19,272 nt of DNA from IMG/VR virus record IMGVR_UViG_2541047431_000016. One strand, 5' to 3'. A program made the position numbers. Origin of the DNA: a virus. Lineage: Duplodnaviria; Heunggongvirae; Uroviricota; Caudoviricetes. Shown one piece after another: positions 13,701 to 16,700 of this stretch (its first letter is position 1; each line of letters starts with the position of its first letter).

Positions 13701-16700
13701 AATTTCAGATACTGCGCCTCCCCACAGTGCGGGCAGGGCACATAAAAACGCATAAAATGCGCCGACTCGTTAGCGGCTTTTTCGATCTGGCAGGTGCCTT
13801 TGATTTTAGGCGTCGAGCCGCGAATGGATTTTGGCCACACCGACCCCTCAATACGCTTATCCCCCAGCAGGGTTGGCGAGCCCTCTTTTTCGACATCCGG
13901 CTCGAACGAGGAAAGTTCGTCATAGCAGACCACGTCAACGGATTTTTCACGGTAGTTTTTGGCGGCAGCGCCGCCCAGGCACCAGAAACCGACGCCCGAT
14001 GAAAAGCGTTTCAGCGTGAGAGTATTGTCACGATGTTTACGACCCAGCCATGGGGAAAGGTCTTTCAGGCATGGCACGTTCCGAATCGTCGCCTCCACGT
14101 GAGACTTCATAAAATCTTCAGCGGCAGAATCCGTGGGCTGAAAAAGCAGACTGTTTCGGGATTTATGCTCAATAAAATACCCGCCCCCCCCCCAGCAACA
14201 TCTTTGTATAGCCAACACGGGCAGATTTAATCAGATTAACAGTGCGGATCTGATCATTCCCCATACTGTTCATGATGGCGATCTGGAATGGCAGCGTTTT
14301 CCATTCGCCCTCACCATATGAAGATTCTTTAGGCAGATAATAATTTTGATCAGCCCATTCAACTGGCGTCACCGGCAATGCCCTTATCAGGGGCTGTAAT
14401 GCAGTTGTGACAGCGCTCATCATATTATTCAGTTGTTGCTCTGATATATTCATCAAGTAAATCCGGTAATTTATCCCCTGCCCGCGCACACTGATTTGCC
14501 CCCTTAGCAATAAGGGTTTTCAGATGGTCAAGATGGCGCGGTGTTAAATCAGGAAACTGTCGCTGCATGGATAAAGGGATGGAATCAAGCGTACTGGATA
14601 ACGCCATTGCCAGCTTACTGAGGGCAAAAATACAGAACCCGGTGTCAATCAGTTTTCCTTTTGACACCTCATTTTTTAACTGCTGTGTAACAGCCTGTTC
14701 TGCTGTCAGTTCCCATCTGGCAATAAGCAATTTCTCCTCATAGTCGTCTTCGCTATCGCCATCAGGCACATCGTTTTTACTTCTCCTCAGATACGATATG
14801 TAAAAATCGCGCCAGGCATCCAGATCCAGTTGCCCTCGCTTATTCGATATCGGGGCACCCGGCAATTTCTGCAATCTGCGAAGCTGGCGATCGGTCAGAC
14901 TTAAATGCCTGGCAACTTCAGTCTGCGTAGCCACTCCTCACCTCGCAAAAACTCTCACCTCACAATCACAACAAAACCGGTCATGTCCGGTTTACATGTC
15001 TGTTTTTTGTTCATGTCCGGTTCACAGAAGACCTGTTTTTATATTTTTCATATAGTTAACTTGAAGAGAAACCGGACATGGATCCCGGAAAATTTTCATA
15101 AATAGCGAAAACCCGCGAGGTCGCCGCCCCGTAACCTGTCGGATCGCCGGAAAGGACCCGCAAAATGATAATAATTATCATCTACATGTCACAACGTGCA
15201 TCTACGCCATCAAACCACGTCAAATAATTAATTATGACGCAGGTATCGTATTAATTGATCTGCATCAACTTAACGTAAAAACAACTTCAGACAATACAAA
15301 TCAGCGACACTGAATACGGGGCAACCTCATGTCAACGAAGAACAGAACCCGCAGAACAACAACCCGCAACATCCGCTTTCCTAACCAAATGATTGAACAA
15401 ATTAACATCGCTCTTGATCAGAAAGGTTCAGGTAATTTTTCAGCGTGGGTTATTGAAGCCTGCAGAAGAAGATTAATTAATGAAAAACATGCTCAATTTG
15501 TACCCAACAAAGACAAACACGACCAGAGCACCTGTCAGACAGGTTTACTAACGACTTATATATGACACAAAAAGCGACCACTAAAGTCGCTTTTTCTTAT
15601 GGTAACAGGCAATAACGCTCTCAGATATTTTTTAGCATTTTTTTGACCGCGCGTTTCCGGACGTATTCTGTTCTCCTGTCCCTTTATATCGTCGGAATAC
15701 CCGCCGCTCTTCAAATCCCATTCCCAACTCAGAATGTAGTCTGTTGACCGCTTGTTTATTTCTGTCAGGTTCATCGGTGAAACCGGAGTCCGGCGCGCCT
15801 TACGCAAACACTCTGCTCGTTTCTGTGCCGCCACTTTTCTTTTCTGGTCATCACTTAGCTGTACCATCACTTTTGCCCATCGTTCAGCTGCTCTCCGGTA
15901 CAGTCCTTTTTTCTCCAGACATTCTGCCACGTGATCATGTAGCATAAGTGACCTCCGATTATCTACAGACTGCCATCCTGAATTTACCGTCCTTAATGAG
16001 ATAACAATAAAAAACTAATTATATAAAAACAATAAAAATAATATACAAAAAAACTAAACAACAAAGAAAAGCAAATCATATCTGGCATTTTAATTGAAAG
16101 AGCAATTACCGAACAAAAGACGCTGACTATATACTCAAAACCAAACAACAATTCTGCCAATCAGGTATCATGGCAACACACGGAATTACCATGTTTTTGC
16201 CTTCTCTGCCCATACAATACGGGCATATACTTCATACTCTATTGTAATATTTCTATCCATGTGCCCCACTCCATTTACCTGTAAATAATATTCAAAATAT
16301 TTATCACAGAAATCGTTTTTGGCCATGAACTGAGCACACTATAAAGTCCGGAACTGACTCTTTGTTAAATTACCTTAACGTTACCAGTAACACCTTCGTA
16401 ACAAAACATCACGGTATACACTGGGTACGGATATATTCCTGTGCTCCTTCCAGTTGCTTCTGCATTGCCATCAGCCGTTCTCTGAGGATGAAATAATCCC
16501 GTTCAGCGGCTTCTGCCAGTCGGGGACCGGTTGCATTATCCACGCCGGAGGTGATGGGGGCTTTACGCAAGGAGCCTGGACAGTTGGCGTTGATGCGCAG
16601 GCGCTTACGACCAGCGGCAACATCAGCACGCAGAGTTTCATTTTCAGCTCTCGCATCGGCTAATTCCCTCGAGTATCTGGCATCAAGTGCAGCGACATCA

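What the first reader, a model, noticed from the sequence alone, without database searches (positions are those of the whole stretch)
14981..15150. Lambda-identical cosN combined with non-lambda cosB repeats and a divergent Nu1 DNA-binding domain
cosN and both flanking genome ends match lambda, but the Nu1-binding region carries three copies of an 11-bp element CATGTCCGGTT (R3-like copy nearest cosN in one orientation, two copies inverted relative to it and spaced 30 bp apart) instead of lambda R sites. The Nu1 N-terminal HTH (MATQTEVARHLSLTDRQLRRLQKL...) is unrelated to lambda's while the C-terminal terminase-interaction part is conserved. This is a co-varied packaging-specificity swap.
Basis: partly seen in the sequence, partly recalled or inferred. 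Interest (0 to 1): 0.5.

Follow-up and report, generated by a model that had tools for sequence, protein, structure and literature searches.

The report
Non-lambda cosB/TerS packaging module
This is the DNA-packaging start site (cos) of a lambda-like prophage of E. coli O157:H7, in which the cutting site is lambda's but the terminase-docking repeats and the matching DNA-binding domain of the small terminase belong to a different, common and so far little-described specificity class: an ordinary variation on the textbook lambda/phage 21 theme.

The parts
15153..15159 (-). cosQ heptamer GGGTCCT
   Evidence: Identical to lambda and conserved in all related cos sites; 82-83 bp upstream of the R3 core in six loci (five lineages).
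15118..15129 (-). cosN cohesive-end sequence GGGCGGCGACCT (lambda bp 1-12)
   Evidence: Identical to lambda, phage 21 and phi80. Nicking itself is inferred.
15085..15117 (-). Left-arm segment bp 13-45 (I2 region), identical to lambda
   Evidence: Alignment A1. Identity to lambda ends at bp 45/46.
15070..15080 (-). R3: CATGTCCGGTT, bp 50-60, proposed critical TerS site
   Evidence: Exact repeat. Invariant in four E. coli cos variants. Same place as lambda R3 (bp 50-65; PMC9026076).
15046..15058 (-). I1: IHF-like site TAACTATATGAAA (bp 72-84)
   Evidence: Two mismatches to YAANNNNTTGATW. Relatives have 0-1 mismatch at the same 18-bp offset from the R3 core. Aligns with lambda and 21 TAACTnnnTG.
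15012..15022 (+). R2: CATGTCCGGTT inverted relative to R3 (bp 108-118)
   Evidence: Exact repeat. R3-core to R2 offset is 54 bp in all six loci examined (five lineages).
14982..14992 (+). R1: CATGTCCGGTT, same orientation as R2, 30 bp from it (bp 138-148)
   Evidence: Exact repeat. Conserved in the PhiR12, ECCNB12-2 and CB6837 variants but absent from the Salmonella, Citrobacter and P0013 lineages.
14975..14985 (-). One-mismatch copy CATGACCGGTT in the R3 orientation, overlapping R1; probably incidental
   Evidence: Destroyed in ECCNB12-2 and altered in CB6837.
14770..14934 (-). TerS N-terminal DNA-binding domain (aa 1-55), 'MATQ' type; predicted recognition helix aa 15-22 (DRQLRRLQ)
14425..14769 (-). 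TerS linker and C-terminal Nu1-family part (oligomerisation and TerL binding)
   Evidence: Pfam PF07471, aa 49-150, E 1e-18. 44% identity to lambda Nu1 over aa 73-169.
12524..14510 (-). terL (gpA homologue), split by a +1 frameshift in a G10 run at 14184-14193
   Evidence: Pfam GpA_ATPase and GpA_nuclease. 66% identity to lambda gpA. Frameshift site shown.

Best explanation
This is the cos site and small-terminase (terS) gene of a lambda-like prophage of E. coli O157:H7, the Sakai Sp4/Sp14 type.

It keeps lambda's cosQ, cosN and the first 45 bp of the left arm. These are the parts read by the large subunit TerL. Its cosB and the TerS DNA-binding domain (DBD) belong to a different specificity class.

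Proposed mechanism, by analogy with lambda:
- A dimer of the TerS N-terminal winged-HTH domains binds the inverted sites R3 and R2 (core TCCGGTT).
- It docks across a hairpin bend made by IHF at I1.
- This anchors TerL to nick cosN 50 bp away and start packaging.
- R1 is an accessory site.

Because the R sites and the recognition helix differ from lambda, 21 and N15, this terminase should package only DNA carrying this cosB. Any prophage with this cosB, including defective ones, could be packaged in trans.

Shown here: the sequence anatomy, the covariation across relatives, the conserved geometry and the predicted fold. Inferred: binding, IHF bending, nicking and specificity.
For: 1. Anatomy. 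There are three exact 11-mers, with R3 at bp 50-60 where lambda R3 (bp 50-65) lies (PMC9026076).

2. Not a known class.
- Authentic phage 21 (X02501.1) has R = CGTGTCGGTACT and gp1 begins [24 protein letters not shown].
- Lambda and phi80 have CGTTTCC-type R sites.
- A tblastn of the window's first 60 residues hits none of these phages.

3. Covariation.
- Citrobacter, same recognition helix: ATGTCCGGTT.
- E. coli P0013, helix ITERWLRDLQK: ACTTCCGGTT in both R3 and R2.
- Salmonella P0027: A(T/C)TTCCGGTT.
- Nine 'simple-cos' relatives (Aeromonas phiARM81ld, Pseudomonas LPPA33, E. coli 705R4, Azospirillum and several metagenome-assembled genomes, MAGs): eight have tandem TTCCG(G/C)TTCC 23-52 bp before terS. 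That is 27-fold enriched over the rest of those loci.
- Klebsiella P0069 has a closely related C-terminal part but another DBD, and it carries GGTTGTTGT three times instead.

4. Geometry. cosQ to R3 is 82-83 bp, R3 to I1 is 18 bp and R3 to R2 is 54 bp in five lineages, although the intervening sequence differs.

5. Constraint. Among four E. coli cos variants with 2-29 substitutions in bp 1-195, none falls in R3 or R2.

7. Function. The same cos and terS, 96% identical in DNA, are in PhiR12_1 to PhiR12_5. Their GenBank records list hosts E. coli K-12 and C and an intact terL. Sp4 DNA was reported packaged, presumably by the Sp14 terminase acting on the identical cos (PMC2669165).
Against: - There is no direct binding, nicking or packaging data for this cosB/TerS pair.
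- I1 matches the IHF consensus only as well as lambda's I1 does (two mismatches).
- R1 is inverted relative to the lambda/21/phi80 rule and is absent in sister lineages, so its role is unclear.
- This copy's terL is frameshifted, so the site may work only in trans or not at all.
- Sequence-profile homology of the DBD to lambda's is weak (hhalign probability 24%).
Confidence: 0.85

Rival explanations
1. It is simply the phage 21 packaging specificity, the classic partner of lambda with identical cosN and a different cosB.
For: Lambda and 21 share cosQ and cosN and differ in cosB and the TerS helix (PMC4669245). The window's R (CATGTCCGG) resembles 21's R2 and R1 (CATGTCGG) in its 5' half.
Against: Phage 21 gp1 is 53-55% identical to lambda Nu1 in the DBD and is not found by tblastn with the window's DBD. 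Phage 21's R sites are C(G/A)TGTCGGnnCT with the motif starting at bp 53 and R1 forward. The window has TCCGGTT cores, the motif starts at bp 50, and R1 is inverted.
Confidence: 0.03
2. The repeats are operators for another regulator, or a promoter or terminator element of the late operon, and are not terminase sites.
For: Short inverted repeats just upstream of a gene are typical operators. A near-palindrome AAACCGGTCATGTCCGGTTT lies at R1.
Against: The motif tracks the TerS DBD class across phyla and keeps a fixed distance from cosQ and cosN, not from the terS start. The R3-to-terS distance varies from 91 to 171 bp while cosQ to R3 stays 82-83 bp. The palindromic extension at R1 is not conserved.
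Confidence: 0.05
3. A decayed, non-functional relic: the cos and terS are leftovers in a defective prophage, and the repeats no longer matter.
For: terL is frameshifted in the window. In the identical region of strain PV15-279 the terminase, portal, capsid and tape-measure genes are annotated as frameshifted or truncated.
Against: R3, I1 and R2 are intact and identical to those of the PhiR12 phages, which have an intact terL. Cos sites of defective O157 prophages were reported to be packaged in trans. This rival concerns only the activity of this copy, not what the element is.
Confidence: 0.07

Closest known systems
Phage lambda cos (cosQ-cosN-cosB with R3-I1-R2-R1) and gpNu1
   Same: Identical cosQ, cohesive end and bp 1-45. 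R3 lies at the same distance from the nick. There is an IHF-like site between R3 and an inverted R2. terS overlaps terL. The DBD has a MerR-like winged-HTH fold and the C-terminal part is Nu1-family.
   Different: The R sequence is CATGTCCGGTT, not CGTTTCC(T/G)TTCT. The DBD cannot be aligned by sequence and is about 11 residues shorter in the wing region. R1 is inverted.
Phage 21 cosB / gp1 (Miller & Feiss 1985, X02501.1; Feiss lab lambda/21 specificity genetics)
   Same: The same logic applies: cosN is shared with lambda, and specificity is set by the R sites and the TerS recognition helix. The 5' half of the R site is similar (CATGTC).
   Different: Phage 21's DBD is clearly lambda-like (53-55% identity), its R sites differ from lambda's at only two key bp (56 and 59), and its R1 is forward. 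The window's domain belongs to another sequence class.
N15 / Monarch packaging specificity (simple versus complex cosB; PMC4669245)
   Same: One DBD class occurs with both a complex cosB (R3-I1-R2, here in enterobacteria) and a simple cosB (one compact site about 50-65 bp from the end, with terS starting near bp 80, as in Aeromonas phiARM81ld and E. coli 705R4).
   Different: N15/Monarch R sites are GGTTGTTGT-type. That class was seen here in Klebsiella L016 on a related TerS C-terminus. The window's class is TCCGGTT.
Sakai prophages Sp4/Sp14 of E. coli O157:H7 (Asadulghani et al. 2009, PMC2669165, Fig. S8)
   Same: The same cos flank and the same Nu1 protein (MATQTEVARHLSLTDRQLRRLQKL..., 169 aa). 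cosQ, cosN and an IHF site were marked there, and trans-packaging of Sp4 by the Sp14 terminase was proposed.
   Different: That alignment stops at ...GGGATCCATGT. The R repeats, the I1 site and the DBD class were not analysed.
PICI Rpp proteins (Fillol-Salom et al. 2019, PMC6739421)
   Different: Rpp is a separate small protein that heterodimerises with phage TerS. Here the domain is the N-terminus of a complete TerS that overlaps terL inside a full lambdoid prophage.

Membership tests
Lambda-like cos site (12-nt 5' cohesive ends, cosQ-cosN-cosB) | Cohesive-end sequence with strong identity to lambda's GGGCGGCGACCT, flanked by lambda-like arms | tested here: met
   12/12 identical, bp 1-45 identical, and the right end is about 97% identical. 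Actual nicking was not tested.
Lambda-like cos site (12-nt 5' cohesive ends, cosQ-cosN-cosB) | cosQ heptamer upstream of cosN | tested here: met
   GGGTCCT at 15159..15153, conserved in relatives.
Complex cosB (R3-I1-R2-R1) | R3 about 50-65 bp from the end, and an inverted R2 beyond an IHF site | tested here: met
   R3 at bp 50-60, I1-like site at bp 72-84, R2 at bp 108-118. Offsets of 18 and 54 bp are fixed in five lineages. IHF binding was not tested.
Complex cosB (R3-I1-R2-R1) | R1 in the same orientation as R3 (the rule stated for lambda, phi80, 21 and Gifsy-1; PMC9026076) | tested here: not met
   The conserved R1 (bp 138-148) has the orientation of R2. The forward one-mismatch copy is not conserved. 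R1 is absent in three sister lineages.
Lambda packaging specificity | R consensus CGTTTCC(T/G)TTCT and recognition helix RTIQNWQE | tested here: not met
Phage 21 packaging specificity | R = C(G/A)TGTCGGnnCT with G at bp 56 and 59; gp1 helix RTIERWQS | tested here: not met
   Comparison with X02501.1. No tblastn hit with the DBD.
N15/Monarch packaging specificity | R3 of GGTTGTTGT type | tested here: not met
   That motif is absent from the window's cosB. It is present in Klebsiella L016, which has another DBD.
Nu1-family small terminase (PF07471) | Nu1 C-terminal oligomerisation/TerL-binding region, with the gene overlapping a gpA-family terL | tested here: met
   Pfam E 1e-18 over aa 49-150. 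terL has GpA_ATPase and GpA_nuclease domains.
TerS/Rpp MerR-like winged-HTH DNA-binding domain | Helix-turn-recognition helix-wing-helix fold at the N-terminus | tested here: met
PICI Rpp hijacker | Stand-alone small protein in a PICI lacking terminase and morphogenesis genes | tested here: not met
   The domain is fused to a Nu1 C-terminus and followed by terL, portal and head genes.

The most novel reading that the evidence does not exclude
The 'MATQ' TerS domain and its TCCGG-type sites form a widespread, so far unnamed packaging-specificity lineage. It is at least as distinct from lambda as N15 is. It exists both as a simple cosB (tandem TTCCGGTTCC next to terS, in Aeromonas, Pseudomonas, Azospirillum and other phages) and as a complex IHF-dependent cosB with rigid 18/54-bp geometry (enterobacteria), here with an R1 in the 'wrong' orientation. 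It would be a second natural system, independent of N15/Monarch, for testing how simple and complex cosB sites interconvert. It would also explain which O157 prophages can cross-package one another.
Probability: 0.5. Interest if true: 0.4.

Novelty: new member of a known kind. Interest (0 to 1): 0.3.

Why it matters
Packaging specificity decides which DNAs a terminase can mobilise. This cosB class is in about one fifth of complete E. coli genomes, often twice per O157:H7 genome. Prophages that share it, including defective ones carrying virulence genes such as the PerC/Pch homologue next to this cos, can be packaged in trans by a sibling. For terminase biology, the class gives a clean natural covariation series: helix variants paired with CATG, CACT or CATT flanks of a fixed TCCGGTT core, with strict R3-I1-R2 spacing. 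That series could be used to map TerS-DNA contacts. It does not change the accepted picture of lambda-like packaging.

Tried and rejected
- Phage 21 identity. This was my first guess, from memory. I rejected it after fetching X02501.1 and aligning DNA and protein.
- Full-text search for the 11-mer and for the TerS N-terminus. It returned only unrelated primer hits.
- Key Feiss-lab papers (PMC5006951, PMC2815929, PMC209074). They are not held, so the details about bp 56 and 59 come from PMC4669245.
- Sequence search of the PDB with the whole TerS. Nothing useful.
- IHF consensus scan with at most one mismatch. It found no site in cosB. The I1 site was recognised only by alignment with lambda and 21 and by its conserved offset in relatives.
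- The forward one-mismatch copy overlapping R1 as the 'true' lambda-style R1. Rejected because it is not conserved.
- The genome-contig scan. It returned only six distant loci because the peptide pattern was narrow. They were still informative.
- No paper describing the PhiR12 phages was found.

Full report
**What is there**

Read on the minus strand, window 15160-14900 is a lambda-type cos site followed by a small-terminase (TerS) gene.
- The 12-nt cohesive-end sequence GGGCGGCGACCT lies at 15129..15118. With that as bp 1, bp 1-45 are identical to phage lambda.
- The ~200 bp on the other side of cosN (15130-15330) are almost identical to lambda 48302-48502. They include the cosQ heptamer GGGTCCT at 15159..15153.
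- Identity to lambda stops at bp 45/46.

From there the sequence carries CATGTCCGGTT three times with no mismatch. These are its only three exact occurrences in the 19-kb window.

| Site | Window coordinates | Lambda-type bp | Orientation |
|---|---|---|---|
| R3 | 15080..15070 | 50-60 | rightward |
| R2 | 15012-15022 | 108-118 | inverted |
| R1 | 14982-14992 | 138-148 | inverted, 30 bp from R2 |

terS starts with GTG at 14934 (bp 196) and ends at 14425. It overlaps a gpA-family terL.

**Where it comes from**

- The 776 bp from cos through terS are 100% identical to E. coli O157:H7 chromosomes. There they lie in a lambdoid prophage between the lysis genes (with a PerC-family gene and a YlcI-family gene) and the head genes.
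- The cos flank and the 169-aa protein (MATQTEVARHLSLTDRQLRRLQKL...) are those of Sakai prophages Sp4/Sp14. They were aligned with lambda in Fig. S8 of Asadulghani et al. 2009. That figure marks cosQ, cosN and an IHF site and stops just where R3 begins.
- The cosB segment alone occurs in 1143 of 5426 complete E. coli genomes, up to four times per genome. It carries no annotation.
- The same cos and terS, 96% identical, with an intact terL, are in the phages PhiR12_1 to PhiR12_5. Their GenBank records list hosts E. coli K-12 MG1655 or E. coli C.

**It is not a known specificity class**

The obvious candidate was phage 21, the classic phage with lambda's cosN but its own cosB. The collection holds the original left-end sequence (X02501.1).

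| Phage | TerS N-terminus | R site |
|---|---|---|
| 21 | [24 protein letters not shown] (53-55% identical to lambda over the DNA-binding domain) | C(G/A)TGTCGGnnCT |
| lambda | MEVNKKQLADIFGASIRTIQNWQE | CGTTTCC(T/G)TTCT |
| phi80 | MEVNKKRLSEIFGVSVRTIQNWQD | CGTTTCC(G/T)TTCT |
| window | MATQTEVARHLSLTDRQLRRLQKL | CATGTCCGGTT |

- Phage 21 has G at bp 56 and 59 where lambda has T and C. This agrees with the published account (PMC4669245).
- A tblastn with the window's first 60 residues finds none of these phages. It finds only 14 phage records: five PhiR12 phages, E. coli 705R4, five Aeromonas phages, two Pseudomonas phages and one weak Roseobacter hit.
- Pfam's Nu1 model covers only residues 49-150.
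- Residues 73-169 are 44% identical to lambda Nu1. That is about as distant as phage 21's C-terminal part (47%). Residues 1-55 give no meaningful alignment.

**Is the N-terminal domain unrelated to lambda's?**

No.
- A profile comparison aligns it colinearly with the lambda-type helix-turn-helix over 30 columns. The signal is weak (hhalign probability 24%).
- An AlphaFold model from 18 sequences (pLDDT 78) gives helix 4-10, helix 15-22, a short beta wing and helix 38-55.
- Foldseek ranks the same fold class first, but without significant E-values.

So it is the same MerR-like winged-HTH fold, with a shorter wing and a different recognition helix (DRQLRRLQ).

**Covariation**

The homologue search shows one TerS C-terminal lineage carrying three different N-terminal domains: the MATQ type, an MAxLLNKSDMA type, and the lambda/21-like MxVNKK type. 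The junction lies near residue 60-65. I fetched the DNA upstream of representatives.

| Locus | Recognition helix / domain | R sites |
|---|---|---|
| Window and PhiR12 | LTDRQLRRLQK | CATGTCCGGTT |
| Citrobacter P0034 | LTERQLRRLQK | ATGTCCGGTT in R3 and R2 |
| E. coli P0013 | ITERWLRDLQK | ACTTCCGGTT in R3 and R2 |
| Salmonella P0027 | ITARRVRDLQK | A(T/C)TTCCGGTT |
| Klebsiella P0069 | MAFLLNKSDMA domain | GGTTGTTGT three times (the N15/Monarch kind) |

In distant relatives the site is a tandem TTCCG(G/C)TTCC lying 23-52 bp before terS. These relatives are Aeromonas phiARM81ld, Pseudomonas LPPA33, E. coli 705R4, Azospirillum, and several alpha- and gammaproteobacterial metagenome-assembled genomes (MAGs).
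- Eight of nine such loci have it.
- The density is 10.3 per kb there against 0.38 per kb elsewhere in the same loci.
- The ninth has GGCCGGGGCCGGTT at that place.
- In phiARM81ld, CATTTCCGGTT lies at bp 52-62 from the record's first base, and terS starts at bp 79. This is a simple cosB like that of N15.

Thus a TCCGG core tracks this domain across Proteobacteria (reduced to TCCG or CCGG in the most divergent loci). The 5' flank varies together with the helix.

**Geometry and constraint**

- In six loci from five lineages (O157/PhiR12, ECCNB12-2, P0013, Salmonella, Citrobacter) the distances are fixed. cosQ to the R3 core is 82-83 bp, the R3 core to an IHF-like site is 18 bp, and the R3 core to the inverted R2 core is 54 bp.
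- The intervening sequence and the distance to terS (91-171 bp) vary.
- The IHF-like site matches YAANNNNTTGATW perfectly in P0013, with one mismatch in Salmonella and Citrobacter, and with two in the window (TAACTATATGAAA, 15058..15046). It aligns with the TAACTnnnnTG element of lambda and 21.
- Among four E. coli variants of this cos that differ at 2-29 of 195 positions, no change falls in R3 or R2.
- R1 is kept only in the O157/PhiR12/ECCNB12-2 lineage. It has the orientation of R2, unlike the R3-like orientation described for lambda, phi80, 21 and Gifsy-1 (PMC9026076).
- A forward one-mismatch copy overlapping R1 is not conserved.

**Mechanism**

By analogy with lambda (PMC4669245, PMC9026076):
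- It positions TerL on the lambda-type cosN.
- cosQ and cosN serve for termination.
- R1 is accessory.

The specificity follows from the changed helix and R sites. These steps are inferred; nothing here measures binding or cutting.

Indirect functional support comes from the PhiR12 phages, which carry the same module. It also comes from the reported packaging of Sp4 DNA, attributed to the Sp14 terminase acting on the identical cos.

In this window terL is broken by an extra G in a G-run (G10 at 14184-14193). Strain PV15-279 has G9 there, and PhiR12_1 has no homopolymer at that place. This copy may therefore depend on a sibling prophage, or the extra G may be a sequencing error.

**Verdict**

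The finding is correct and its interpretation is essentially right. It describes a natural allele of a well-understood system: specificity modules of lambda-like terminases, as in lambda versus 21 versus N15/Monarch. The locus has been published, at least as an alignment.

What appears not to have been described, in the literature I could search, is:
- the identity of the R sites;
- their strict geometry;
- the family-wide link between the MATQ domain and TCCGG-type sites;
- the coexistence of simple and complex cosB forms for this domain.

I rate it a new member of a known kind, with modest interest.

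Noticed in passing
window 14184-14193 (minus strand), within terL 12524-14510: terL is split into two frames by a G10 homopolymer. The otherwise near-identical PV15-279 sequence has G9, and PhiR12_1 reads GGGAGTCGC at that spot. This is either slipped-strand inactivation or a homopolymer sequencing error.
   Followed up: partly
L016 (Klebsiella, P0069) and P0087 versus window 14425-14934: The same TerS C-terminal lineage carries three unrelated-looking N-terminal domains, with the junction near aa 60-65 (YEEKLLIAR). Over aa 73-169 it is roughly 60-70% identical by eye in alignment A5 (no separate figure was computed). 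The Klebsiella one sits beside three GGTTGTTGT repeats (N15/Monarch-like) arranged forward, inverted, forward.
   Followed up: partly
L007, L008, L009, L019-L024 (20-55 bp upstream of terS): Distant MATQ-type terminases have a compact tandem site TTCCG(G/C)TTCC instead of R3-I1-R2. This is a 'simple cosB' counterpart, analogous to N15 versus Monarch.
   Followed up: partly
window 15070-15080 versus L004 (phage 21) bp 108-119 and 153-164: The window's R (CATGTCCGG) and phage 21's R2 and R1 (CATGTCGG) share the 5' half, although the TerS domains belong to different sequence classes. Cause unknown: shared ancestry of the sites, or chance.
   Followed up: no
window 15556-15945 (-) and 15329-15565 (+): A PerC-family (Pch-like) regulator gene and a DUF3950/YlcI-family gene lie between the lysis cassette and cos. 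These are cargo genes placed right next to the packaging site.
   Followed up: no
window 18769-19149 (+): An ORF whose product resembles, from my memory of the sequence, the orfA of an IS3-family element (IS629-like). It appears to interrupt the late/lysis region relative to strain PV15-279. No search was run on it.
   Followed up: no
window 15085/15084 (bp 45/46): There is a sharp mosaic boundary. Sequence is near-identical to lambda from about 200 bp left of cosN through bp 45, then abruptly unrelated. The exchange point therefore sits exactly at the cosN/cosB border.
   Followed up: partly
L002 (lambda) bp 41-47: Lambda itself has TCCGGTT in the spacer between cosN and R3 (TTTTCCGGTTTAAGG). 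The window reads TTTTCCGGGATCC there. Probably coincidental.
   Followed up: no
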